A stretch of 64,000 nt of DNA from Pyrinomonadaceae bacterium (lineage in GTDB: Bacteria > Acidobacteriota > Blastocatellia > Pyrinomonadales > Pyrinomonadaceae). Every line of letters starts with the position of its first letter. The first letter of the stretch is position 1. The position numbers and the translations under genes are program-made. The notes beneath the pieces are model-generated. The model was given only the letters and a program-made list of their open reading frames with translations. It was not told the origin of the DNA and searched no databases. Where the stretch lies: contig DASXSC010000093.1 in assembly GCA_036506215.1 (NCBI GenBank), positions 386-64,385 on the forward strand, in the 5' to 3' direction. This document shows positions 41,751 through 51,118 of this stretch, in pieces.

Positions 41751-41855
41751 CACTGGGATCGCGGGCGTCACGCCCTCCTGCGTAGGGCAGGCGCAAGCAT
41801 CGGGAGTTAAAGCCAACGTACCTACGGAGCGGGCGGGACGCCCGCGGTCCCAGTG
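41751..41855. repeat. Family-C MITE-like element (terminal inverted repeats cactgggatcgcgggcgtcacgccc / gggcgggacgcccgcggtcccagtg)
   Basis: Arms at 41751-41775 and 41831-41855. Same termini as the element at 49613-49730. Confidence 0.7.
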
Positions 41856-41869
41856 ATTGTAATCAAGAG

Positions 41870-43663
41870 CTATTTCACCCACTCGTCCGCGATCTCCGTT
41901 TCCACTTTCACCGGTACTGTCTTCACGTATTCTTCGCCCGCGGCGCGCATTGCACGCTCTACCCGTCGCGCAATCTCTTCGGCCTCATTCGCGTCTGCTT
42001 CAACCACAATTTCGTCGTGAATGATATTGACGATCTGCGCGTTAGTCCCGCGCAACTCATCCTTCAGCAGGCGTAAAGCGCGCTTCAGTATGTCGGCACT
42101 CGTTCCTTGAATTGGGGTGTTCTTACCGTTTCGCTTAGTCATTGAAATCTGCTGGCGGTCCTGTTCGTCGTAGCGGAAACGGACCAGGCGGCCCGAGCCG
42201 GTTCTAGCCTGGCGCTCGCTTACGGCGCGGTTTGCCGCTTCGTGGAGATAAGTATCGAGTTGGCTATAGGTGGCAAAATATTTGCGTAGCACGTTTTCCG
42301 CTTCGGGCACGCTCAGACCTGTCATTATCGAGAAGCGTTGCGCTCCGATGCCATAAACCACTCCGAAGTTTAAGCGTTTGGCAAAATCTCTTTGCTCTCG
42401 CGTAACCTGATCAAGCGCCACATTAAAAACTTCAGCGGCCGTTACGCGATGAAGATCGGCGCCGGAGTTGAAAGCATTGATGAACCCGCGGTCTCCTGAA
42501 AACTCGGCGAGAATGCGCAACTCGATTTGCGAGTAGTCGGCAATCACAAGCTTTCTACCCTCAGGGTATCCGGAAAAGCAGCGACGATATTCCACCGCGT
42601 GCGGCACCTGTTGGATATTGGGATTCGTGCAGGAGAACCTGCCGGTCGGCGCGCCTATCTGCCGGAAATCGGCGTGCAGCCGCCCGGTGGTGGGATTGAT
42701 CAACTCGATCATGTTCTGACCGTAACTGGTCAGCGCTTTTTGCACCGTGCGGTACTCGAGCAACGTGGCAATAATCGGATACTCGGCGGCGAGCGGTTGA
42801 AGTTTCCAGTTGCGTGTCGAGTCGGGAAGCGAGATTCCCAGACGGTCAAACGCTCGTGTCAACTGTTGGGCCGAATCGAGGTTGATCTCATCGCGTTGTG
42901 GCCCGCCGAAGAGCGTTCCCTGCGAAGACTCTTCGGCAAGTACTTCCTGCAATTCATCTGCCAGCTGGCCTCTTTTCTTTTCAACGATAGCCAACTGTTC
43001 GAGCCAGCGATCCTTGTGCATATAGAAGCCGGCCAGCTCCATATCGGCGACCGTCATTATGCAGTCGAACTCCAATCGTGCGCAGTCAATCAGAGAATCG
43101 GATCGCAATCGCTCGATCAATTTCTCACGCAGCGGGAGCATCACTGCCGCGTCGCGCGCGGCATACTGGAGCTGCGCATCGGAAAGCTCGAAGTTCCAGT
43201 TGCTGAGACGTTCAGTCTTATCGACCGCCTCATTCAAATAGCGTGACGCGACGGCCTCGAGTCCGTGCCGCTCTTCAATATCTCCAGCGCCCAGCAACTG
43301 ACTCGCCAGCAGCGTATCGAAAATTCCATCCAGATCGACGCCGAGACTGTGCTTGATGAATTTCGCGTCAAACTTCGCGTTGTGAGCTATCTTGACGGGA
43401 CGATGAGCAGCAAGCAGACTGCGCAACGGAGCGAGCGCGCTGGTTTGCACAAGGTCACCATTGCCGCCATTGCGAAAAGCGTCGAGGTCAATGATGTGTA
43501 CCCCACTGGGTGTGGCAAGCTGGATCAGACGCAGTCGACCGTAGTAGGGATCAAGCTCGGTGGTTTCGGTATCAAGTCCGATTGCCTGGTGAGTCGACAA
43601 GAAGTCAACGGCCTCGCGAAGCTCTTCCTCGTTTTTGATTAACTGATAATTCGTATTCATCAA
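41870..43663 (-). CDS. Family A DNA polymerase with 3'-5' exonuclease domain, lacking a 5'-nuclease domain (597 aa)
   Basis: Exo I GLDTETT, Exo II HNAKFDAKF and Exo III YAARDAAV. Pol motif A DYSQIELRILA, motif B RDFAKRLNFGVVYG and motif C IIHDEIVVE. Confidence 0.9.
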   Translation of the reverse strand: MMNTNYQLIKNEEELREAVDFLSTHQAIGLDTETTELDPYYGRLRLIQLATPSGVHIIDLDAFRNGGNGDLVQTSALAPLRSLLAAHRPVKIAHNAKFDAKFIKHSLGVDLDGIFDTLLASQLLGAGDIEERHGLEAVASRYLNEAVDKTERLSNWNFELSDAQLQYAARDAAVMLPLREKLIERLRSDSLIDCARLEFDCIMTVADMELAGFYMHKDRWLEQLAIVEKKRGQLADELQEVLAEESSQGTLFGGPQRDEINLDSAQQLTRAFDRLGISLPDSTRNWKLQPLAAEYPIIATLLEYRTVQKALTSYGQNMIELINPTTGRLHADFRQIGAPTGRFSCTNPNIQQVPHAVEYRRCFSGYPEGRKLVIADYSQIELRILAEFSGDRGFINAFNSGADLHRVTAAEVFNVALDQVTREQRDFAKRLNFGVVYGIGAQRFSIMTGLSVPEAENVLRKYFATYSQLDTYLHEAANRAVSERQARTGSGRLVRFRYDEQDRQQISMTKRNGKNTPIQGTSADILKRALRLLKDELRGTNAQIVNIIHDEIVVEADANEAEEIARRVERAMRAAGEEYVKTVPVKVETEIADEWVK

Positions 43664-43958
43664 CCATAATTTTCCGTAGAAGCTGACTGTTGTAATTACT
43701 AATCACAAACAGACAAGCTGAAACCTGAATTAATACTGCCTAAGCGACGAGATAAAACGTACTCGAAAAAAAAGATTCTGTCATTCGGCGGGCGGGTTAC
43801 CTATGTTGTTAGGACGATAGTGGGAGCGAGCGGCCTAGCAATCTTTCTGAAAGCATGCCTACTCGCGAGGGCGCGGCGTGGCGATTTTCTTTTGCAGCGT
43901 CGATTGCGACAGGCATTAGATCTGTCGGGGTTTGCCCTCCTCGCGTTGTAAGAGCAGA

Positions 43959-46900
43959 CTACCGCGCCTTCTCCCGCACAACTTTGGCCTTCTCCTTGAC
44001 CTTCTCGGCCTCGGCCTGCATGCCCAGTCTTTTGCTGTAGTCCTCGAGCGTCGCAGCGTAAAAAACAAGAAGCTTCTTATCGTCGACGTTGCCCATAATG
44101 TAGTCGAACGCGTCAAGCGCCCGCTGGTAGGCGCCCAAGGCGTCGTCATTATTCATATTTTTGAACGCTAAGGCATTAATGGCGTAGAGATATTCCGACA
44201 CTAGCAAGTCCGGCTTTTCAGGCGGTGGGTCTGCCTTCATCTCCAGCTGCTTGAAGTAGTTCGCCATGGTGTTGACCCTGTCCCGGCGCGCCTGCGCTCG
44301 TTGATCTTCCCTTTTTTGTTTCTCGTATAGCTTTGAGAGTCGGAAGAGTATGATGTCCTCCTTCATCCAATCGCTCTGTCCCTTGTAGACAGCGAGGGCG
44401 TCCTTGTAGTACTGCTCGGCTTCGGAGGGTATCTTCGGGTCGTAAGGATCGTCCGAATGGAGAGCTCCAAGTTGAAACAGCGCATCGGGGTTGTCTTTGA
44501 CGGCCGTCTTCAGGAGATTTTTGTATTTCTCGGCGTCCGCGGCGTCCTTCTTACTTTCGCGGTAAAACGTCGCCAGTCTGTCGTAACTCTTCCACAGCTC
44601 GTTTTTCAAGGACCTTCTCTGCCACAGTTCCTGGTTCTTCTCCCTGTGTTCTAACGCCTCCAAGTAGATCTTCTCGGCGACAGCGTACTTGTCTAACCTG
44701 ATGTAGGCGTCGCCCAGCTCATCGAGGTCGGCAGTCAGCTTCACGACGTGTGAAATAAGCAGGTCAAGACGGCCTTCTCTGTCGAGAGTTGAACGTCCCA
44801 GACGGTCTTCTTCCTGACTCTTCCTCATGTCCCGCAGCTTGAACGCAGTCCGCTGCAGTAGATTCGCCGCGCGCAAGGCGTCTTCGGCCTGCCGCGTCTG
44901 GAGGGCCGCATCTTCTTTGGCCTTCTTAGACGCGGCTTCTTCGGCCTCCCTGGAAGCGGCGTCCTGGGCCTCCATAGAAGCGGCGTCGTGCATCGCGGCC
45001 TTTTGCCTAGCCGCGTCGCTAACTGCCGCGTGGATTTGCCCAAGGTCGCTATAACTGCTGGCGATTTCCTTACCGTGATCGATGAGTTCGCTGACAGGAA
45101 CGTCCTCCTGCACGGCTATCATGTCACTGAGAACCCCAATGGCCTCGTCGTAACAACCCTCCCGCCCCTGGTAGAACTCGGCGAGTTCTCTGAACGCGGC
45201 GACGAGCCCAGACCGCTCATTGCTGTTCAGTTCGCTGCTCTTTCTGCCCAACAGGCGGTGTTCAATCGCGAGCAGGAAATTCTCGTCGGCCTTGTCGAAG
45301 TTGCCCATATCCACATATAGCCGCGCGAGGCTCGCGTATCTGGGGGCGAGAACCTGATCCGAGAGTCTTTTGCTACGTATGTGCTCTCTCTGAAGATCCA
45401 GGGCCGCCTCGTAAAAATGTTTCGCCTTCTGGTAGTTCTCGTCCCTCCTGGCTGCCTCGTCTTTAGCCCGCAGCCCGACGCCATGATAAGCGTCGGCAAG
45501 GCCGCCGTAAGTGTCGAGCAGGATTGGGCTGGTGTCCTTATTCGGTGATTTCTCCAGGATGGCGCGTGCCTTCTCGAATGCTTCAACTGCCTTGGTGCTA
45601 TTGTCGAGTTTCAGTTGCGTACTGCCGATGTTGGAGTAGGCCCAGCCGCGCAAGTCGGTGAGTTCCTGAGTCTGTTCGCTCGTTAAGCCCTGAGCGTTCG
45701 CAGGCTGGCTCGAGCCGGGTTGCAGATCGGGGAGTTGCCCGATCAATTCCTCGAAGGCTGCGTTTGCCTTCTCGAAATTCCCGCGCTGAAACCCTTCAAG
45801 ACCGCTGCGGACGGAATCGTTGCGATCCATGGATTTCTGTAGCTGCGTGGCTTTGGCTCTCTCGCTCGCGGCAGCCTCCTCAGCCTTCTGGCGGGCCAAC
45901 CCGGCCTTCTTCGTGGCCTCCTCAGCCTGGATCCGAGCAGTCTCCGCCTTCTTAAAATTTTCCGCGGCGCTCCGCTCTTGCTCGTTGGCGTGTCGGGTTT
46001 CCCGCTCCTGCGCCTCAAGCGCTTTGCTCTCCGCAGCTAAGGCGTTCTCCGCCTCTCTCTTCTTCTTCGCCAGATCGTCGTTAAGCAATTGCGTCTGCGC
46101 TTTCTCGTGTCGCAGGCTGGCAGCAGCCTTGAACGCGAAGCCTGTCAACGCGATCGCTAGCACGAACATGACGGCCATCCCGGCAGTCAACCAGCGCATA
46201 CGGTGCGCTGAGCGGGCCTGCTTCTCAGCGAAGTCGCGCGCCATTTCCAGTTCACGGCGCTCGCGCGCCAGTTGTTCTTCGCGTTGCCGTTCTTTCTCGA
46301 CGATTTCGGCTTCGTGGGCTGTCTTGCTCGCTTCTAGAAACGCCATCGCCTCGGCAAACTCGGGGTGATAGCGGCGCCCCCAAGCGGCGTTGGGCCGTGA
46401 TTGCTCGCGCCAATAGAGGGCGATCTGAAGCCCCGGGTTTTGCATCATTCCCTCGCTACCTTCGCGGTGCAGGACGGCGGCCTCGGCCAGGCGACGGTAG
46501 ATGCGGGACGACTGGGCCTCTTCATCAACCCACTTCTGCAGTCGATCCCAGTTGCGGATAAGGCTCTCGTGCGAGATGTCGATTACGGTGTCTGGCGTCA
46601 GCGGGACACCCGCCGGCGGCATCAGGAATGAGCACCCCTCATAGCGGAAGACCTCAACAACCGCGCTGACCTCCTCAACGCTCGCATCGGCGATCTCGCA
46701 GAGTTCTGAAATGCGCGTCGGGCGGCGTATCTCGCGATTGTCTGCTCCGCGCTCAGTTAGGGCCTTGAAGATCAACTCGGCGACGCGTTGGCTGCGCTCG
46801 TCCAATATGTCAAACGCCTCGTCGGCGTGGAGTGAGAGCGCCTCGGCCATCGTACCGATGGCCTCGTAGTGTTCCAGGCCAAGCGGCTCACCATCGCGCC

Positions 46901-47741
46901 GGTGAACGCTCCAGTAGTCCCATGTGCGCATCAGCGCGTGCTGCAGAATTGGGAGCTGGTCGGGATTATCGCCCACGTCGTTAAGAAGGCGACTGACGAG
47001 CGGCTCGGCAACCCGACTTCGGGCGACGCCGATAGGCCCAGTGATGGCGAAGCGTCGCTCGTCGCGCGTCATCCGCGGGATTAAATACTGACCATCATTG
47101 ATTGCCTCCGGAAGTCCCTGAAACTGAGCGCAGTCACCCAGGAAGTCTGAGCGCATTGTGGGGACGACATAGATCGAGAACTCACGCTGCTGCGAAGCTT
47201 CGAGCAGAAGCTTAACGAAGGCCGACGCATCGTCCCCGCTGCTCGAAGATGCACGGGCCGCGCGAAAGCGAAACAACTCTTCGAATTGGTCTACAACGAG
47301 GAGCAGCTTCTGATGGTCGGCAAGCCGAGCTTGTCTCGCTACGTCCACTAAACCAAGCGCACCGCGACGCAATTTGGCCTCGATGACGGCCTTTGCTTCC
47401 GCGGGAGGCAAACCTCCCCCTGCTTCCAACAGCACGTCCTTGTCACCAAGAGCGGATGCAAGGTTCCCAATCGGGTCGCTCCCTGGTCGCATAATGGCGA
47501 TGCGCCAGCCGGAGCCTGCACCCGCCATCAAGCCGCCGCGTAACGCGGGAAGCAGTCCGGCGCGAACGAGCGAAGACTTGCCGCTGCCGGAAGTGCCAAC
47601 GACGGCAAGGAAGTGTGAGTGCTGCAGGCGAGCGATCAGGGCGTCTGACTGTCCCTCGCGACCGAAGAACAGGCGATATTCATCTGTCTCAAACGGGCGG
47701 AGACCAGGGAAAGGGTTTTTGATTTTTTTCGACTCAATCAT
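43959..47741 (-). CDS. 'Novel STAND'-type P-loop NTPase - single TM helix - charged coiled coil - TPR-like repeat region (1260 aa)
   Basis: NPFPGLRPFETDEYRLFFGRE; Walker A VVGTSGSGKSSLVRAGLLPAL (nt 47571-47597); Walker B LLLVVDQFEELF. TM WLTAGMAVMFVLAIALTGFAFKA (aa 517-539, nt 46125-46193). Lys/Glu/Ala-rich coiled coil, then ~600 aa of TPR-like helices. Its ATG overlaps the upstream stop (TGATG). Confidence 0.85.
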   Translation of the reverse strand: MIESKKIKNPFPGLRPFETDEYRLFFGREGQSDALIARLQHSHFLAVVGTSGSGKSSLVRAGLLPALRGGLMAGAGSGWRIAIMRPGSDPIGNLASALGDKDVLLEAGGGLPPAEAKAVIEAKLRRGALGLVDVARQARLADHQKLLLVVDQFEELFRFRAARASSSSGDDASAFVKLLLEASQQREFSIYVVPTMRSDFLGDCAQFQGLPEAINDGQYLIPRMTRDERRFAITGPIGVARSRVAEPLVSRLLNDVGDNPDQLPILQHALMRTWDYWSVHRRDGEPLGLEHYEAIGTMAEALSLHADEAFDILDERSQRVAELIFKALTERGADNREIRRPTRISELCEIADASVEEVSAVVEVFRYEGCSFLMPPAGVPLTPDTVIDISHESLIRNWDRLQKWVDEEAQSSRIYRRLAEAAVLHREGSEGMMQNPGLQIALYWREQSRPNAAWGRRYHPEFAEAMAFLEASKTAHEAEIVEKERQREEQLARERRELEMARDFAEKQARSAHRMRWLTAGMAVMFVLAIALTGFAFKAAASLRHEKAQTQLLNDDLAKKKREAENALAAESKALEAQERETRHANEQERSAAENFKKAETARIQAEEATKKAGLARQKAEEAAASERAKATQLQKSMDRNDSVRSGLEGFQRGNFEKANAAFEELIGQLPDLQPGSSQPANAQGLTSEQTQELTDLRGWAYSNIGSTQLKLDNSTKAVEAFEKARAILEKSPNKDTSPILLDTYGGLADAYHGVGLRAKDEAARRDENYQKAKHFYEAALDLQREHIRSKRLSDQVLAPRYASLARLYVDMGNFDKADENFLLAIEHRLLGRKSSELNSNERSGLVAAFRELAEFYQGREGCYDEAIGVLSDMIAVQEDVPVSELIDHGKEIASSYSDLGQIHAAVSDAARQKAAMHDAASMEAQDAASREAEEAASKKAKEDAALQTRQAEDALRAANLLQRTAFKLRDMRKSQEEDRLGRSTLDREGRLDLLISHVVKLTADLDELGDAYIRLDKYAVAEKIYLEALEHREKNQELWQRRSLKNELWKSYDRLATFYRESKKDAADAEKYKNLLKTAVKDNPDALFQLGALHSDDPYDPKIPSEAEQYYKDALAVYKGQSDWMKEDIILFRLSKLYEKQKREDQRAQARRDRVNTMANYFKQLEMKADPPPEKPDLLVSEYLYAINALAFKNMNNDDALGAYQRALDAFDYIMGNVDDKKLLVFYAATLEDYSKRLGMQAEAEKVKEKAKVVREKAR

Positions 47742-49354
47742 CAGTTCCCTCCTTCCGCGGCCTGCACGGCAGTAACAAAATCGCGCAGGTCTTTGGGATC
47801 GAATGAGCTGTAATTGCGTATGACGTAGGGCACCAGGTGGGTGAGGAAGTCTTCCTTTTGATCGTTTGGCGGCGAGCCGACGTAAACCGCGCTGGCGCTC
47901 CAGTCGTGTTCTCGACCGTAGCCGTAGGCTTTCTCAAGGTCTTCGAGATTCTTGCGCACCCAGGGCTCGTCGGCACTGCCGAAGTAGATGAGCGCCGCGT
48001 CACACTCTCTGAGGTTCTTGCGGTGATAATCCATAAGCGTATCCATGCCATTCTGGTCAAACCACGGGATGACCTCCAGGTTTTGTTCGTAGAGGTATTT
48101 TTTTATCGGCCGCACGAAACTCCGGTCGCGGTCTTCACAGATGAGGTATACATGTCTAAACTTTGAGCGCTCGCTGCCGTGCGCCGTCGTCTTCTCAGGC
48201 GGATTTAGTTTTTCGACAATGCGCGTCTTTAGATCCTCCACGCTTGTTTGCAAGAGCTCCGAGCCGCCCGTAATGCGATTTTGGAGTTCACTCACGAAAG
48301 ACTTCTGGCGTTCATCGGTGATTTCCAGCGCCGGTGTCATCAATCCCTGCGGCATCCAGAGTAGACGCAAAAAGGCTGGATCAGCCGCGCCGTGTTGAGC
48401 AGCCAGTTCTTCCTGGATGCGAACCACGGAGCGCGCGTCGTCTTCGGGTGTCGAGCCATAGCGCGTCCCTACCAGGTGCACAGAAAGCGCGCAACGCGTG
48501 AGGGCCGCGCGAACGGTATTTTCAGTTTGCTTCACCTCTTCGAGCGGCAGCTTCTGCTCGGGCAACACGCCGTAGCCGCGCTGCCGCAACTCGTCACGCA
48601 CAAGCTCGCGCTCGTCCGCCAGATCAGATGTAGTCTCGGCGAGATAGACTAACTTCGATGATACCAACGCGCCCTTCCCATTGGGTTGGTTAGTCAACGG
48701 CTTCGACGAAGCATTCGTGGCATTTGTGATGGCGGGTGCATTAGTGGAAGCCGGGTTTAACCGGGAGGCGTCAAGAGGTCCCGTTTGTTTTGTCTCCGAA
48801 GAATGCTTCAACTCAATAAGAGTCTTGGTGATGTCAGCCACAAGCCGGTTCAGCATTCGCCAGTAGTGCTTATCATCCGGTTCGGGGCTGAACTCAGTCA
48901 GCAGACCCGTCGCTTCATCCTCCGCGTAGAACTGGTAGCCGATGAGATTTCTTATCTGCGCCGGCTCTCGCTTTTTCAGGTGAGCGGGCAGCGGAGTTTT
49001 CACCACCTTGAAGACGCGTGAGCGGAAACCGGGCGCGGCCTCACTCGCCAGTGGTTCGCCTGCGTGAAAGGCTTCCATCTCCCGGCAGCACCAGTCTGAC
49101 TGGACGTATCGCGGAGAGATGACCGGGATGAGCAAAAGCGACTGCGTAACGCCCTCGCTGATTGCCCCACCCAATTCATCATTGCCCTGGAGGTTGTGAC
49201 CATCGCGCCAGATTTCCGGCTCGTAGCCGAGTGCCTGTCCTACCAGCACCAAAAGGCGTTCGTGGAGCAGGTCAATCCAGCCCTTCTCCTGGCCGAAGGG
49301 ATTAAGGTCGTCAAGGTGTCCGTAGCTAATAAAGATATCGTGAGTAAAAGACAT
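47741..49354 (-). CDS. TIR domain protein with two additional DUF4062/TIR-like Rossmannoid modules (537 aa)
   Basis: DIFISYGHLD...LLLIPVISPRYVQSDWCCREMEAF (TIR, putative catalytic Glu92). VYLAETTSDLADERELVRDEL...SVHLVGTRYGS (DUF4062 consensus). VYLICEDRDRSFVRPIKKYL...CDAALIYFGS (third TIR-like module). SD GGAGG lies 8 nt upstream. Confidence 0.8.
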   Translation of the reverse strand: MSFTHDIFISYGHLDDLNPFGQEKGWIDLLHERLLVLVGQALGYEPEIWRDGHNLQGNDELGGAISEGVTQSLLLIPVISPRYVQSDWCCREMEAFHAGEPLASEAAPGFRSRVFKVVKTPLPAHLKKREPAQIRNLIGYQFYAEDEATGLLTEFSPEPDDKHYWRMLNRLVADITKTLIELKHSSETKQTGPLDASRLNPASTNAPAITNATNASSKPLTNQPNGKGALVSSKLVYLAETTSDLADERELVRDELRQRGYGVLPEQKLPLEEVKQTENTVRAALTRCALSVHLVGTRYGSTPEDDARSVVRIQEELAAQHGAADPAFLRLLWMPQGLMTPALEITDERQKSFVSELQNRITGGSELLQTSVEDLKTRIVEKLNPPEKTTAHGSERSKFRHVYLICEDRDRSFVRPIKKYLYEQNLEVIPWFDQNGMDTLMDYHRKNLRECDAALIYFGSADEPWVRKNLEDLEKAYGYGREHDWSASAVYVGSPPNDQKEDFLTHLVPYVIRNYSSFDPKDLRDFVTAVQAAEGGN

Positions 49355-49494
49355 GGGGCTTACCTCCGGACTTTGTTCTGCCGGCAGCCTCGGGTTAGAA
49401 GAGGACTTAATCGGTTTCGGCGAGAGTACCGGCGCAGCCTACTAAGGCCTGATAGCAGGAATGCCTTAAGAGGCGAGGTTTAATTACTAACCGC

Positions 49495-49524
49495 TGTATA
49501 CATTGAGGGCCGCGATCCTGTCAA
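49495..49524 (-). promoter_or_regulatory. Candidate sigma70-type promoter for the TIR/STAND operon (TTGACA-18-TATACA on the minus strand)
   Basis: Minus-strand TTGACA at 49524-49519 and TATACA at 49500-49495, ~140 nt upstream of the TIR start. Hexamer match only. Confidence 0.35.
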
Positions 49525-49612
49525 CCAGATGTTATGCGTGGAGGCTCGCGCCAGTGAAGTAAGCGTAACGTCGAGCCATGAGATCTCTTCTACGCTGACT
49601 ATCAGCCTCTTG

Positions 49613-49730
49613 CTGGGACCGCGGGCGTCTCGCTCGCCTCCCTGGAATGCCACTTTGCCAAAGTTGACAACTTCAACCCAAACTTGATTGAACGCGTTGC
49701 TTGAGGCGGGCGAGACGCCCGCGGTCCCAG
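49613..49730. repeat. Family-C MITE-like element (ctgggaccgcgggcgtctcgctcgcctc / gaggcgggcgagacgcccgcggtcccag)
   Basis: 28-bp near-perfect terminal inverted repeats at 49613-49640 and 49703-49730. The interior contains gccaaagttgac, also seen in family-B units. Confidence 0.75.
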
Positions 49731-49741
49731 CGGAAACGCCG

Positions 49742-51118
49742 TTAGTTTTGCAGCAGCTCGGCGGAACCCCGGGTTCTCACTAGCATCAGCAGCAACAACG
49801 CCGCTGTTGCACCAAGGACCGCACTTACAAGGAAAGCCGTTTGCGGGCCGCGCCAATCCCACAAAGCGCCCATCAGCAAAGACGCCGGAAGCACTGTTAT
49901 TCCGAAAGCAAGATTATACAACCCATACGCTGTGCCACGTTGCTCGGGTCTCACTAAATCAGCAACCAAAGCCTTCTCGGCGCCTTCCGCCAGTCCAAAA
50001 TAGATCCCATAGATCAGGAATAGTATCCACACCGAAATGTGATTTGAGACGAAGGCAAACCCAGCATACACTGCGGCGTAAAGAACCCATCCGGAAACTA
50101 TTAACCGGCGGCGACCGAGGGTGTCCGAGAGATGGCCGCCGAAAAGGGAGCTGACGACTTTGCTGACGTGCAGAATGGCCCAAAGCAAGGGAATTGCCGC
50201 AATCGAGACGCCCGCCGATTGTGCGCGCAACAGCAGAAAGGCGTCGGAAGAATTCGACAGCGTAAACAGTGCCACGATTACCAGGAAGCGTTTGAAGTTG
50301 CCGTCAAAGCCACCCAGCGAAAAACGCAACGGAGCACTCTTTATATCCGGAGCGATTCCCAGGGCCGCATCAAGAGCGGCATCCGGCGCCGCATTCGGCC
50401 TAAACGACTCGCGCACGAAGAATGCGACAACGACCACAGCCGCAAGTGCGGGAATGGAAGCCAGTAAAAAGATCTTGTTGAAGACTCCGGCGGTCGGGGC
50501 GTTACGATCAGCCGAGAAAAGCAGCAACAGCAGGTAACCAATCAACGGGCCGACGACTGCTCCGGTGTGATCCATCGCCCGATGAAGTCCAAAGGCCAGC
50601 CCACGCTCTTCGACAACGACGGTATCCGCGATCATCGCGTCGCGTGGCGCGCTGCGTACGCCTTTCCCCACGCGGTCGGCTACCCGCATTACCAACACCT
50701 GATACCAAGTAGCGGCAAACGCCAGCAATGGCCTGGCAAAGCTTGAGAGGGCGTATCCCAGAACAACGAAGATTTTCCGTTTGCCCAGGCGATCGCTGAA
50801 ATGACCAGCAAAGAGCTTCAGCAAACTCGAGATCGATTCCGCTGCTCCTTCGATCAGTCCAACAATTCCGGGTGAAGCACCTAAGGTCAGCGAGAGGAAT
50901 ACCGGCAACAACGGGTAGATGATCTCGCTCGAGGCATCGTTTAGCAGACTAACAAGACTGATCGCGAAAACATTGCGGGGCAGACGGCGGTAGCGGCGCC
51001 ATAATCCGGAGATTCCTCCCTGGAGGGGCGCAGCTAGTGCGGGCAAGTCTGCTTGCAGAGCAGGAACTAAAGCGGGATCGAGCGGATCGGCGGCATCATC
51101 GGTATCAATCTTCCCCAT
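49742..51118 (-). CDS. MFS transporter
   Basis: About 12 TM helices and a GHFSDRLGKRK-type loop motif. Confidence 0.8.
   Translation of the reverse strand: MGKIDTDDAADPLDPALVPALQADLPALAAPLQGGISGLWRRYRRLPRNVFAISLVSLLNDASSEIIYPLLPVFLSLTLGASPGIVGLIEGAAESISSLLKLFAGHFSDRLGKRKIFVVLGYALSSFARPLLAFAATWYQVLVMRVADRVGKGVRSAPRDAMIADTVVVEERGLAFGLHRAMDHTGAVVGPLIGYLLLLLFSADRNAPTAGVFNKIFLLASIPALAAVVVVAFFVRESFRPNAAPDAALDAALGIAPDIKSAPLRFSLGGFDGNFKRFLVIVALFTLSNSSDAFLLLRAQSAGVSIAAIPLLWAILHVSKVVSSLFGGHLSDTLGRRRLIVSGWVLYAAVYAGFAFVSNHISVWILFLIYGIYFGLAEGAEKALVADLVRPEQRGTAYGLYNLAFGITVLPASLLMGALWDWRGPQTAFLVSAVLGATAALLLLMLVRTRGSAELLQN

What the first reader, a model, noticed from the sequence alone, without database searches (positions are those of the whole stretch)
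43959..49354. Translationally coupled TIR/DUF4062 multi-domain protein plus a membrane-spanning novel-STAND NTPase-coiled-coil-TPR protein: candidate two-gene conflict/defence system with a split, transmembrane architecture
Seen in the upstream gene (537 aa):
- It opens with a TIR signature, DIFISYGHLD ... LLLIPVISPRYVQSDWCCREMEAF. The W-C-x-x-E context places a putative NADase Glu at residue 92.
- Two further Rossmannoid modules follow. One matches the DUF4062 consensus (VYLAETTSDLADERELVRDEL...HLVGTRYGS). The other is TIR-like (VYLICEDRD...AALIYFGS).
- Its TGA stop overlaps the ATG of the next gene (TGATG, 47739-47743).

Seen in the downstream gene (1260 aa):
- It starts with NPFPGLRPFETDEYRLFFGRE-x20-VVGTSGSGKSSLVRAGLLPAL ... 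LLLVVDQFEELF.
- One strongly hydrophobic helix lies at aa 517-539, flanked N-terminally by RSAHRMRW.
- A ~110-aa K/E/A coiled coil follows, then ~600 aa of TPR-like repeats.

Established knowledge: this N-terminal motif set typifies the 'novel STAND' NTPases of NTP-dependent conflict systems. Those are usually fused in cis to TIR, caspase or trypsin effectors and to WD40/TPR sensors. TIR domains act as NAD+-consuming effectors in Thoeris, Avs-like and bNACHT-type defence.

Inference: here the effector part (three TIR-like modules) is a separate, translationally coupled polypeptide. The repeat 'sensor' lies beyond a TM helix, so it may face the periplasm or envelope rather than the cytosol. I do not recognise this arrangement as a named defence system.
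Basis: partly seen in the sequence, partly recalled or inferred. Interest (0 to 1): 0.85.

Follow-up and report, generated by a model that had tools for sequence, protein, structure and literature searches.

The report
Membrane-spanning STAND receptor with TIR partner
Two overlapping genes encode a TIR-type NAD-cleaving protein and a membrane-spanning ATPase switch whose fast-evolving repeat domain is predicted to face outside the cytoplasm; the pair is real and conserved across phyla but untested, and the same gene arrangement was already listed in the supplement of a 2021 survey.

Summary
Gene A (47741-49354, minus strand, 537 aa) has a TIR domain with the catalytic Glu (E92), a DUF4062 module and a weak third TIR-like module. 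Gene B (43959-47741, 1260 aa) has nSTAND1 (E 1.8e-101), one transmembrane helix (aa 517-539), a K/E/A-rich stalk and TPRs. The TGATG overlap is present.

New findings:
- The pair is co-conserved. Every A homologue in 78 genome loci with enough downstream DNA is followed by an nSTAND1 gene, and 62 of 65 metagenomic B homologues have a complete A directly upstream.
- All complete B homologues keep one hydrophobic helix after nSTAND1. Positive-inside bias puts the C-terminus outside.
- The region beyond the helix is hypervariable (TPR, WD40, MepA-like peptidase, lectin), while A and nSTAND1 are under strong purifying selection.
- The DUF4062 module carries an invariant Gln where characterised NADases have the catalytic Glu, so it is probably not an NADase.
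- In Pyrinomonadaceae the pair sits at a fixed locus among housekeeping genes.

Novelty is limited. Kaur et al. 2021 (eLife, source data) already list "TIR+DrHyd-> nSTAND1+TM+BetaPropeller" operons. The system remains unnamed and untested. Outside-in sensing that activates a TIR NADase is the best-supported mechanism, but it is inferred.

The parts
47741..49354 (-). Gene A: 537-aa cytosolic protein with three alpha/beta modules (TIR, DUF4062/NIR-like, TIR-like).
   Evidence: The ORF is shown and the Pfam hits. More than 120 orthologue clusters at 67-100% identity and full length were found. dN/dS is 0.17 against the closest orthologue.
48794..49354 (-). Module 1 (aa 1-187): TIR domain with the SDWCxRE motif. 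The putative catalytic Glu E92 is encoded at 49079-49081.
   Evidence: TIR_2 scores 31.8 bits for this module alone. A weak FxsC_Nterm match covers aa 8-175. Foldseek finds TIR domains with target-normalised TM-scores of 0.5-0.73. E92 is present in 134 of 138 homologues.
48656..48793 (-). Low-complexity variable linker (aa 188-233).
   Evidence: pLDDT is below 50. The linker varies in length and sequence. dN/dS is 1.3 over 46 codons.
48200..48655 (-). Module 2 (aa 234-385): DUF4062 (NIR/DrHyd)-like domain with Gln (Q314, codon 48413-48415) at the position of the catalytic Glu.
   Evidence: DUF4062 scores 33.1 bits at E 6.5e-8. Eva01's E87 maps to profile position 78, and so does Q314 here and the equivalent Gln in five distant homologues. 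Gln is present in 137 of 138 homologues.
47744..48163 (-). Module 3 (aa 398-537): degenerate TIR-like alpha/beta domain, with Asn469 where a TIR has its catalytic Glu.
   Evidence: TIR_2 gives E 0.0017 (19.2 bits, below the cutoff) and CAP12-PCTIR_TIR gives E 0.018. hhalign against module 2 gives E 0.008. AlphaFold2 predicts a beta-alpha-beta fold. Position 469 is N in 73 and K in 47 of 138 homologues.
47739..47756 (-). A/B junction: a Shine-Dalgarno-like GGAAGGAGGG (47747-47756) inside A's last codons, and the TGATG stop/start overlap (47739-47743).
   Evidence: The sequence is shown. Overlaps of 4 nt or 1 nt dominate among homologous loci.
43959..47741 (-). Gene B: 1260-aa single-pass membrane protein with nSTAND1, a TM helix, a stalk and TPRs.
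   Evidence: The ORF is shown, the Pfam hits and the hydropathy.
46467..47714 (-). nSTAND1 NTPase module (aa 10-425). Walker A GTSGSGKSS is at 47571-47597 and Walker B LLVVDQFEE at 47277-47303.
   Evidence: PF20703 scores 341 bits. G49, S51, G52, G54, K55, S56, S57 and D151, Q152, F153, E154, E155 are invariant in 43 diverse homologues. Orthologues are 76-81% identical and dN/dS is 0.21.
46194..46466 (-). Conserved helical region between nSTAND1 and the membrane (aa 426-516), ending in the Arg-rich RSAHRMRW.
   Evidence: Orthologues are 46-52% identical. W444, P450, W454 and Y458 are invariant. The mean K+R count in the N-flank is 5.8, against 3.4 in the C-flank.
46125..46193 (-). Predicted transmembrane helix (aa 517-539).
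   Evidence: The Kyte-Doolittle mean is 2.13. One such segment is present in all complete homologues from genomes, in 148 of 150 cluster representatives and in 296 non-identical homologues, with a median hydrophobic span of 22 aa. The position is conserved but the sequence is not.
45762..46124 (-). K/E/A-rich stalk, probably coiled coil (aa 540-660), predicted to be extracytoplasmic.
   Evidence: Composition is given. Across homologues, 68% of the first 100 residues after the TM helix are K, E, A, Q, R or L. Orthologues are 15-29% identical. Kaur et al. annotate the equivalent region of one homologue as PspA-like.
43962..45761 (-). Variable TPR-type repeat domain (aa 661-1260), the presumed sensor, predicted to be extracytoplasmic.
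   Evidence: TPR_12, TPR_8, TPR_2 and TPR_1 hit between aa 700 and 1037. Orthologues are 12-31% identical. Only 6 homologous clusters exist in 5.8 billion proteins. Homologues carry WD40, a MepA-like peptidase or a lectin domain here instead.

Best explanation
The two genes form one operon that encodes a membrane-embedded, NLR-like signalling switch and its NAD-consuming effector.

**Proposed arrangement**
- Protein B is anchored in the inner membrane by a single helix.
- Its nSTAND1 NTPase sits in the cytoplasm.
- Its stalk and TPR array sit on the periplasmic side.

**Proposed sequence of events**
1. A ligand or perturbation in the envelope is recognised by the fast-evolving repeat domain.
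2. The signal crosses the membrane through the helix and stalk.
3. This permits NTP-dependent oligomerisation of the nSTAND1 modules on the cytoplasmic face.
4. The oligomer clusters protein A, whose N-terminal TIR domains then assemble into an active NADase.
5. The outcome is NAD+ depletion, or possibly a TIR-made signalling nucleotide, followed by growth arrest or death of the cell.
6. The two degenerate modules of A (DUF4062-like with Gln for Glu, and a TIR-like module with Asn or Lys for Glu) act as docking, scaffolding or nucleotide-binding regulators rather than as enzymes.

**Shown here**
- The domain identities and the intact catalytic and Walker motifs.
- The strict gene pairing and the conserved single TM helix with positive-inside bias.
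- The hypervariable outer domain next to a conserved inner machinery.

**Inferred**
- The topology and the direction of signalling.
- The physical contact between A and B.
- The NADase output and the biological role (conflict or defence).
For: **Domains and motifs**
- TIR E92 is conserved in 134 of 138 homologues.
- The Walker A and B motifs are invariant.

**Pairing**
- An nSTAND1 gene lies immediately downstream of A in every genome locus with enough DNA. This holds for Blastocatellia, Thermoanaerobaculia, Bacteroidota and Gammaproteobacteria.
- 62 of 65 metagenomic B genes with at least 1750 nt of upstream DNA have a complete A upstream.
- The stop/start overlap is 4 nt or 1 nt in most loci.

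**Topology**
- One hydrophobic span (median 22 aa) follows nSTAND1 in 296 non-identical homologues.
- The N-flank has more K+R than the C-flank in 243 cases and fewer in 18.
- No signal peptide or other TM segment precedes the NTPase.
- Some homologues carry typically extracytoplasmic domains beyond the helix. These are Peptidase_M74 (MepA-like, with the H-x6-D zinc motif aligned) and Laminin_G_3.

**Receptor-like evolution**
- Among orthologues, nSTAND1 is 76-81% identical and the outer domain 12-31%.
- The outer domain has only 6 homologous clusters, against more than 1167 homologous proteins at E<=0.001 for A.
- dN/dS is 0.06-0.21 for the inner modules and 0.38-0.70 for the TM helix, stalk and TPRs.
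- Orthologues at the same locus carry different outer domains.

**Established knowledge**
- TIR and DUF4062 domains are NADase effectors of STAND/Avs-type defence (bioRxiv 10.64898/2026.09.04.749371 and 10.64898/2026.05.01.722283).
- nSTAND1 is described as the central NTPase of conflict systems with TIR, DrHyd, caspase or trypsin effectors (PMC8195603).
Against: - There is no experimental datum for any member of this family.
- No PADLOC defence family matches significantly.
- The window shows housekeeping neighbours rather than a defence island.
- In Pyrinomonadaceae the pair is syntenic and diverges at about the rate of its neighbours. That pattern is unusual for mobile defence genes and fits a conserved physiological role equally well.
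- WD40 and TPR arrays are mostly cytosolic domains elsewhere. Topology was inferred from hydropathy and charge only, without a dedicated predictor.
- Nothing tested here shows that A binds B.
- Two B homologues lack an adjacent A.
- Two of A's three modules lack the canonical catalytic residue, so the effector chemistry is less certain than a plain 'TIR NADase'.
Confidence: 0.55

Rival explanations
1. The pair is a conserved envelope-surveillance or cell-fate signalling system rather than an anti-phage or conflict system. B reports cell-wall or envelope status. A's TIR makes a signalling nucleotide or tunes NAD+ levels to trigger dormancy or a stress response.
For: - The pair sits at a fixed syntenic position (QueF-MFS-A-B-PolA) across many Pyrinomonadaceae genera, and A diverges at about the rate of the neighbouring MFS gene.
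- A is under strong purifying selection.
- Some homologues carry a peptidoglycan-type LAS peptidase domain outside the membrane.
- There is no PADLOC match.
Against: - The hypervariable and swapped outer domains at one locus are what arms races produce.
- Tandem or multiple copies occur in some genomes. L096 has two pairs, and one Verrucomicrobiales assembly has three nSTAND1 genes each preceded by TIR+DrHyd.
- Toxin-antitoxin genes have been inserted next to the pair in L001, L003 and L004.
- The operon encodes no downstream reader of a TIR-made signal.
Confidence: 0.25
2. B is merely tethered to the membrane and its repeat domain stays in the cytoplasm, where it senses a cytosolic (for example phage) protein as Avs proteins do. 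The hydrophobic segment would be an anchor, a re-entrant segment or an oligomerisation helix.
For: WD40 and TPR sensors of characterised STAND defence proteins are cytosolic (established knowledge). 95 of 291 homologues carry WD40 propellers.
Against: - There is a single span of 19-29 residues with charged flanks and a clear positive-inside bias.
- No second hydrophobic segment exists to bring the chain back.
- MepA-like and lectin domains occur beyond the helix in homologues.
- The helix conserves position and hydrophobicity but not sequence, as membrane anchors do.
Confidence: 0.1
3. All three modules of A are active enzymes, with the Gln or Asn variants using a shifted catalytic residue. 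A would then be a multi-activity nucleotide-processing effector rather than one TIR plus two scaffolds.
For: - Modules 2 and 3 are as strongly conserved as module 1 (dN/dS 0.06-0.08).
- An acidic residue (D or E at position 472) is conserved in 135 of 138 homologues, one helical turn after the canonical site of module 3.
Against: - E-to-Q and E-to-A substitutions at this position abolish defence in PsAvs2, Vulcan, Vesta, KpSwz and Eva01.
- Gln occupies that position in 137 of 138 homologues.
Confidence: 0.1

Closest known systems
nSTAND1 conflict systems catalogued by Kaur, Iyer, Burroughs and Aravind (eLife 2021, PMC8195603), in particular the operon class 'TIR+DrHyd-> nSTAND1+TM+BetaPropeller' in Figure 2-source data 1, table 8
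   Same: - The gene order, the split effector and the domain set are the same. DrHyd is their name for DUF4062.
- The TM segment follows nSTAND1 in the same place, and the C-terminal repeats follow it.
- Acidobacteria examples are listed, such as HBL30162.1. [quoted passage not shown]
   Different: - The window's outer domain is a TPR array, not a beta-propeller.
- The catalogue entry is a table row only. The paper's main text gives no name, topology argument, catalytic-residue analysis or experiment for it.
Avs (AVAST) and other NLR-like STAND anti-phage proteins with TIR or NIR (DUF4062) effectors, e.g. PsAvs2
   Same: The logic is the same: a repeat sensor, a STAND NTPase and an NAD+-degrading effector. 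DUF4062/NIR is a proven Avs effector.
   Different: - Avs proteins are single cytosolic polypeptides with the effector fused at the N-terminus. Here the effector is a separate protein and a TM helix separates the sensor from the NTPase.
- No Avs model of PADLOC matches.
- The DUF4062 module here has Gln in place of the catalytic Glu.
Bacterial NACHT (bNACHT) proteins with TM regions (Kibby et al., bioRxiv 10.1101/2022.07.19.500537, supplementary discussion)
   Same: These are STAND proteins whose C-terminal part contains TM segments. [quoted passage not shown]
   Different: The NTPase clade differs: it is NACHT there, and no NACHT hit was found here. Those proteins have multiple TM regions rather than one helix followed by a large repeat ectodomain, and no separate TIR/DUF4062 partner is described.
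Single-gene or two-gene DUF4062 (NIR) systems: Swarozyc, Evangelion, Vulcan, Vesta
   Same: They share the DUF4062 fold and the SxxxxE-type motif region.
   Different: - Those systems rely on the catalytic Glu of DUF4062. Here that residue is Gln.
- Their partners are AUX, HEAT or alkaline-phosphatase modules, not a STAND NTPase. They contain no TIR domain and no membrane component.
Animal Toll-like receptors (analogy only)
   Same: A repeat ectodomain, a single TM helix and TIR-based signalling on the cytoplasmic side.
   Different: TLRs have no STAND NTPase, and their TIR is fused and acts as a scaffold. No homology of the ectodomain or the TM region is implied.

Membership tests
nSTAND1 (Pfam PF20703) STAND NTPase | Profile match above the gathering score. 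| tested here: met
   The score is 341 bits against a cutoff of 27.1. The match covers aa 10-425 and profile positions 1-371 of 379.
nSTAND1 (Pfam PF20703) STAND NTPase | Intact Walker A (GxxGxGKS) and Walker B (hhhhDQFEE) motifs. | tested here: met
   GTSGSGKSS (aa 49-57) and LLVVDQFEE (aa 147-155) are present, and they are invariant in 43 diverse homologues.
Kaur et al. 2021 operon class 'TIR+DrHyd-> nSTAND1+TM+repeats' | A TIR+DUF4062 gene directly upstream of, and co-directional with, an nSTAND1 gene that has a TM segment followed by superstructure-forming repeats. | tested here: met
   See for the window and for the catalogue rows. The only difference is TPR instead of a beta-propeller, and 'nSTAND1+TM+TPR+TPR' is also listed.
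TIR-domain NADase | TIR profile match above threshold. | tested here: met
   TIR_2 scores 50.5 bits for the whole protein and 31.8 bits for module 1 alone, against a cutoff of 28. Foldseek finds TIR structures.
TIR-domain NADase | Catalytic glutamate in the SxWCxxE context. | tested here: met
   S86, W88, C89 and E92 are present, and E92 is found in 134 of 138 homologues.
TIR-domain NADase | NAD+ cleavage activity. | not testable with these tools
   This requires a biochemical assay.
DUF4062 / NIR / DrHyd NADase | Profile match above the gathering score. | tested here: met
   The score is 32.6-33.1 bits against a cutoff of 24.7.
DUF4062 / NIR / DrHyd NADase | Catalytic glutamate of the SYTExE motif (Eva01 E87, KpSwz E97, PsAvs2 E108). 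| tested here: not met
   Profile position 78 corresponds to Eva01 E87. In the window protein it is Q314, and it is Gln in five distant homologues and in 137 of 138 homologues overall.
Avs / AVAST | Match to Avs NTPase models, with a single cytosolic polypeptide carrying an N-terminal fused effector. | tested here: not met
   PADLOC returns only weak mad3 and mad8 P-loop hits for B (E about 1e-3). The effector is a separate gene, and a TM helix is present.
bNACHT | A NACHT module. | tested here: not met
   No NACHT family appears among the Pfam hits.
FxsC (TIR-like protein of the FxSxx-COOH system) | NCBIfam NF040588 above its cutoff. | tested here: not met
   The score is 40.2 bits against a cutoff of 130.
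Anti-phage defence system (any) | Protection against phage, or significant enrichment next to known defence genes. | not tested
Enrichment was not computed, and only anecdotal toxin-antitoxin and TIR neighbours were seen.

The most novel reading that the evidence does not exclude
This family is a true outside-in bacterial immune receptor: a transmembrane NLR-like switch. Its hypervariable periplasmic repeat domain would detect an invader or envelope damage before or during entry, for example phage tail or ejection proteins, peptidoglycan breaches or injected toxins. It would then relay this across the membrane to NTP-driven assembly of a cytosolic TIR NADase. A catalytically dead DUF4062 module would serve as an NAD-sensing or scaffolding pseudo-enzyme. 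That would be a prokaryotic hybrid of the TLR and NLR logics, fixed as a core locus in a whole acidobacterial family.
Probability: 0.35. Interest if true: 0.8.

Novelty: new member of a known kind. Interest (0 to 1): 0.5.

Why it matters
All experimentally studied bacterial STAND/NLR-like defence proteins sense cytosolic phage proteins. A widespread clade has the sensor on the far side of the membrane: the 150 best-scoring 50%-identity cluster representatives and at least 579 metagenomic matches. If that topology is real, bacteria also have NLR-type receptors for extracytoplasmic cues.

The clade also offers a natural case of a DUF4062 pseudo-NADase beside an intact TIR, just as DUF4062 has been shown to be an NADase in bacteria and in human TEP1.

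The family is well suited to testing. It has two genes, clear point mutants (E92A, K55A, Q314E) and naturally swapped outer domains.

Tried and rejected
- **PADLOC and NCBIfam.** These gave no meaningful family beyond weak partial hits: PDC-S66, mad3, mad8 and a sub-threshold FxsC_Nterm.
- **Solved-structure sequence search with module 2.** It found nothing relevant, and no DUF4062 structure is in the copy.
- **Foldseek of the M2+M3 model.** It gave only generic flavodoxin/TIR-like hits with E > 1e-4, so the fold class is supported but not a specific family.
- **hhalign between modules.** The results are weak (M3 vs M2 E 0.008; M3 vs M1 and M2 vs M1 not significant).
- **Promoter and terminator scan.** It found nothing above shuffled expectation on the coding strand.
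- **Rfam.** No RNA family was found in 43000-50500.
- **HMM search of the whole window.** It found no second A- or B-like gene.
- **P0152.** This looked like an A-B fusion but is a tandem nSTAND1-TM-nSTAND1 protein.
- **L117 and L145.** These were checked as possible alternative-effector loci. They are simply B genes without A, next to RNase III and a histidine kinase respectively.
- **Pseudogene or chance ORF.** Rejected because of strong purifying selection and hundreds of full-length homologues.
- **Not attempted.**

Full report
**1. What is in the sequence**

On the minus strand, ORF A (47741-49354, 537 aa) and ORF B (43959-47741, 1260 aa) are intact. They meet in the sequence GGAAGGAGGGAACTGATG. 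The TGA of A and the ATG of B share one base, and a Shine-Dalgarno-like AAGGAGG lies in A's last codons.

Pfam hits for A:
- TIR_2 at E 3.7e-13 (aa 7-98).
- DUF4062 at E 9.2e-8 (aa 236-311).
- The C-terminal 140 aa alone give a sub-threshold TIR_2 hit (19.2 bits, E 0.0017).

Pfam hits for B:
- nSTAND1 at E 1.8e-101 (aa 10-425).
- TPR families between aa 700 and 1037.

B has one segment with a 19-residue Kyte-Doolittle mean above 1.6: aa 518-536, mean 2.13, preceded by RSAHRMRW. It is followed by 120 residues made mostly of Ala, Glu, Lys and Arg, with no Pro.

AlphaFold2 models of A show three alpha/beta modules (aa 1-187, 235-383 and 400-532) joined by a disordered linker. Mean pLDDT is 64.6 for the whole protein and 73.7 for modules 2 and 3 modelled together. 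Foldseek finds plant, animal and bacterial TIR structures for the whole model, with target-normalised TM-scores of 0.5-0.73. For modules 2 and 3 it finds only generic flavodoxin/TIR-like folds.

**2. Surroundings**

The neighbours are housekeeping genes:
- Upstream of A: an MFS transporter, QueF, a rhomboid protease and a sodium:dicarboxylate symporter.
- Downstream of B: a family-A DNA polymerase and an ECF sigma factor.

No other A- or B-like gene lies in the 64-kb window. No Rfam family was found near the pair, and no convincing promoter or terminator pattern.

**3. The pair is a conserved two-gene unit**

Gene A has more than 1167 database homologues. The best 120 clusters are full length at 67-100% identity and, where named, come from Pyrinomonadaceae or Blastocatellia.

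On long contigs the order QueF-MFS-A-B-PolA recurs, and the A/B overlap is kept.

A scan of one genome per GTDB species gave 78 loci:
- About 70 are in Pyrinomonadaceae or Blastocatellia.
- The rest are in other Acidobacteriota, Thermoanaerobaculia, Bacteroidota and a gammaproteobacterium.

In every locus with enough downstream DNA, an nSTAND1 gene follows A directly. In the distant loci A is only 29-38% identical while nSTAND1 is 54-59% identical.

The reverse test started from B in metagenomes and returned 80 loci at 39-77% identity. Of the 65 B genes with at least 1750 nt upstream, 62 have a complete three-module A directly upstream. Two clearly have none. One locus carries two tandem pairs.

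Stop/start overlaps of 4 nt or 1 nt are the commonest junctions.

**4. The membrane helix and topology**

Every complete B homologue from genomes has exactly one strongly hydrophobic segment, at aa 490-580. So do 148 of the 150 best 50%-identity cluster representatives, and the two exceptions are short. In those representatives the nSTAND1 module starts at residue 1-20, so no effector is fused.

In 296 non-identical homologues:
- The hydrophobic span has a median of 22 residues.
- The 15 residues before it hold 5.8 Lys+Arg on average, and the 15 after it hold 3.4.
- The N-flank has more Lys+Arg in 243 cases and fewer in 18.

The NTPase must be cytoplasmic and no earlier hydrophobic segment exists. 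The simplest reading is therefore N-in, C-out.

Independent support comes from domains beyond the helix in some homologues:
- A Peptidase_M74 (MepA-like) domain is found in 17 of 291 homologues. Its H-x6-D zinc motif aligns to E. coli MepA.
- A Laminin_G_3 lectin domain is found in one.

No dedicated topology predictor was available, so this remains an inference.

**5. Conserved inside, variable outside**

Identity of window B to four orthologues, by region:

| Region | Identity |
|---|---|
| nSTAND1 | 76-81% |
| Pre-membrane region | 46-52% |
| TM helix | 22-52% |
| Stalk | 15-29% |
| TPR region | 12-31% |

A is 68-75% identical to the same orthologues, similar to the flanking MFS (64-78%) and PolA.

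dN/dS against the closest distinct orthologue (A 85.5% identical):

| Region | dN/dS |
|---|---|
| A modules 1-3 and nSTAND1 | 0.06-0.21 |
| TM helix | 0.70 |
| Stalk | 0.59 |
| TPRs | 0.38 |

Searched alone, the 721-aa outer region finds only six clusters in 5.8 billion proteins, all attached to nSTAND1.

Across 291 homologues the outer domain is a WD40 propeller in 95, a window-like TPR array in 40 and MepA-like in 17. The ten remaining outer domains that were sampled are mostly other TPR arrays.

Orthologues at the same syntenic locus can carry different outer domains. L005, for example, has TPR plus M74 in 954 aa. This split between a conserved signalling core and a fast-changing sensor is the pattern seen in immune receptors. 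Relaxed constraint on solenoid repeats would contribute to it as well.

**6. The three modules of A are not equivalent**

- **Module 1 (TIR).** The catalytic Glu (E92, in SDWCxRE) is present in 134 of 138 non-identical homologues.
- **Module 2 (DUF4062-like).**
  - Three 2026 preprints show that DUF4062 (also called NIR; DrHyd in Aravind-lab nomenclature) is a TIR-like NADase whose conserved Glu is essential.
  - I fetched Eva01 from plasmid pMW2. It contains ISYTEMEY with E87, and its residues 9-91 match DUF4062 profile positions 1-82, so E87 is profile position 78.
  - In the window protein and five distant homologues the Pfam alignments put a Gln at position 78. hhalign aligns S309...Q314 with S82...E87.
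  - Gln is present in 137 of 138 homologues.
  - E-to-Q mutants of characterised NIR proteins are inactive in defence, and E-to-A mutants of KpSwz and Eva01 likewise. Module 2 is therefore most likely not an NADase, although its strong conservation (dN/dS 0.08) says it matters.
- **Module 3 (TIR-like).** It has Asn or Lys at the TIR catalytic position. A conserved Asp/Glu lies one helical turn later, so residual chemistry cannot be excluded.

**7. Mechanism**

The best-supported model is an NLR-like switch split over two proteins and across the membrane:
1. The outer repeat domain senses something in the envelope.
2. The signal passes through the stalk and helix.
3. nSTAND1 oligomerises using NTP.
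4. The oligomer concentrates A.
5. A's TIR domains form active NADase assemblies, while the two degenerate modules dock or regulate.

The oligomerisation and TIR-assembly steps are taken from established STAND and TIR biology, not shown here. I put 0.55 on this model, and about 0.35 on the specific claim that it is an outside-in immune receptor.

The main rival (0.25) is a conserved envelope-status or cell-fate signalling role. The fixed locus and vertical descent in Pyrinomonadaceae fit it.

Against that rival, and for a conflict role:
- The outer domains are hypervariable and exchanged.
- Copies are multiplied in some genomes.
- Toxin-antitoxin genes, and in L001 also a TIR gene, are inserted beside the pair in L001, L003 and L004.

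**8. Comparison with what is known**

The pair is not matched by PADLOC families. It fails the tests for Avs, bNACHT, FxsC and the named DUF4062 systems (see the membership table).

It is not new as an architecture. The nSTAND1 source-data table of Kaur et al. 2021 (PMC8195603) contains:
- 412 occurrences of 'nSTAND1+TM' and 92 of 'TIR+DrHyd'.
- Rows such as 'TIR+DrHyd-> nSTAND1+TM+BetaPropeller*->' from Acidobacteria, Verrucomicrobia and Bacteroidetes.
- 'nSTAND1+TM+PspA+BetaPropeller'.
- 'nSTAND1+TM+TPR+TPR'.

The main text of that paper mentions nSTAND1 only as one of several central NTPases. Kibby et al. remark that TM-bearing bacterial NACHT proteins may sense periplasmic signals. I found no paper that names, models or tests this pair, but my searches cover only the held library.

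**9. Verdict**

This is a real, conserved and widespread two-gene module, correctly read by the first stage.

What this analysis adds:
- Strict co-conservation of the two genes in both directions of search.
- A quantitative topology argument.
- The contrast between a conserved core and a hypervariable outer domain.
- The fixed locus in Pyrinomonadaceae.
- The Glu-to-Gln state of the DUF4062 module.

Because the architecture is already catalogued, I class it as a new member of a known kind, with moderate interest (0.5). Its value lies in being an untested and readily testable candidate for extracytoplasmic sensing by a bacterial NLR-like protein.

Noticed in passing
window 49612-49731 and 41755-41851: A palindromic element has 29-nt arms at 49612-49640 and 49703-49731 (97% complementary, 62-nt loop). 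It lies just after the MFS stop and upstream of gene A. A related copy, with conserved arms and a different loop, lies between PolA and the ECF sigma gene. The 19-nt core matches 4 times against 0.03 expected. The two hairpins bracket the block PolA + B + A. They could be REP/MITE-like elements or terminators.
   Followed up: partly
window 43959-49354 compared with L164 5057-10401: Synonymous divergence is mosaic along the cassette:
- A module 1: dS 0.18
- A module 2: dS 0.43
- A module 3: dS 2.0
- nSTAND1: dS 0.37
- B aa 426-539: dS 1.1-1.3
- TPR region: dS 0.49
- Flanking MFS: dS 1.17; flanking QueF: dS 0.90

This hints at recombination or segment exchange inside the operon. It rests on a single pair of sequences.
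   Followed up: no
L027 (genome contig CAWGWE010000003.1): In this locus the flanking genes are close to the window (PolA 82%, MFS 77%, QueF 86%) but gene A is only 64% identical. This suggests in-situ replacement of the cassette by a divergent allele.
   Followed up: no
L096 3041-11355: Two complete A-B pairs lie in tandem on one metagenomic contig. Kaur et al.'s table also lists three nSTAND1 genes preceded by TIR+DrHyd (two of them annotated with a TM segment) in one Verrucomicrobiales assembly.
   Followed up: no
L001 7619-8142 and 15472-16269; L003 9013-9723; L004 19569-20091: Toxin-antitoxin pairs (ParE/antitoxin, DUF433/DUF5615, MqsA/DUF4258) and an extra 265-aa TIR_2 gene are inserted next to the A-B pair in different orthologous loci. 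The site appears to accept accessory conflict genes.
   Followed up: no
L002 15641-18811: The orthologous family-A DNA polymerase downstream of B is interrupted by an intein with a LAGLIDADG homing endonuclease in this genome. The protein is 1056 aa instead of about 595 aa.
   Followed up: no
P0152 (cluster representative, 1138 aa): A single protein has two nSTAND1 modules (aa 6-471 and 625-1095) separated by about four hydrophobic segments, with another after the second module. It is a tandem, multi-pass variant of the family.
   Followed up: partly
L117 5049-8150 and L145 5914-9060: Two nSTAND1-TM-WD40 genes have no TIR/DUF4062 partner upstream. In L117 the neighbours are RNase III and a ketoacyl synthase. 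In L145 the neighbours are a divergent GAF histidine kinase and a response-regulator cyclase. They may be orphan receptors or use a partner encoded elsewhere.
   Followed up: partly
window 47747-47756: The invariant C-terminal Glu-Gly-Gly of protein A is encoded by the same bases as gene B's Shine-Dalgarno-like sequence (GAAGGAGGG). The protein-level conservation there may therefore reflect a translational signal.
   Followed up: no
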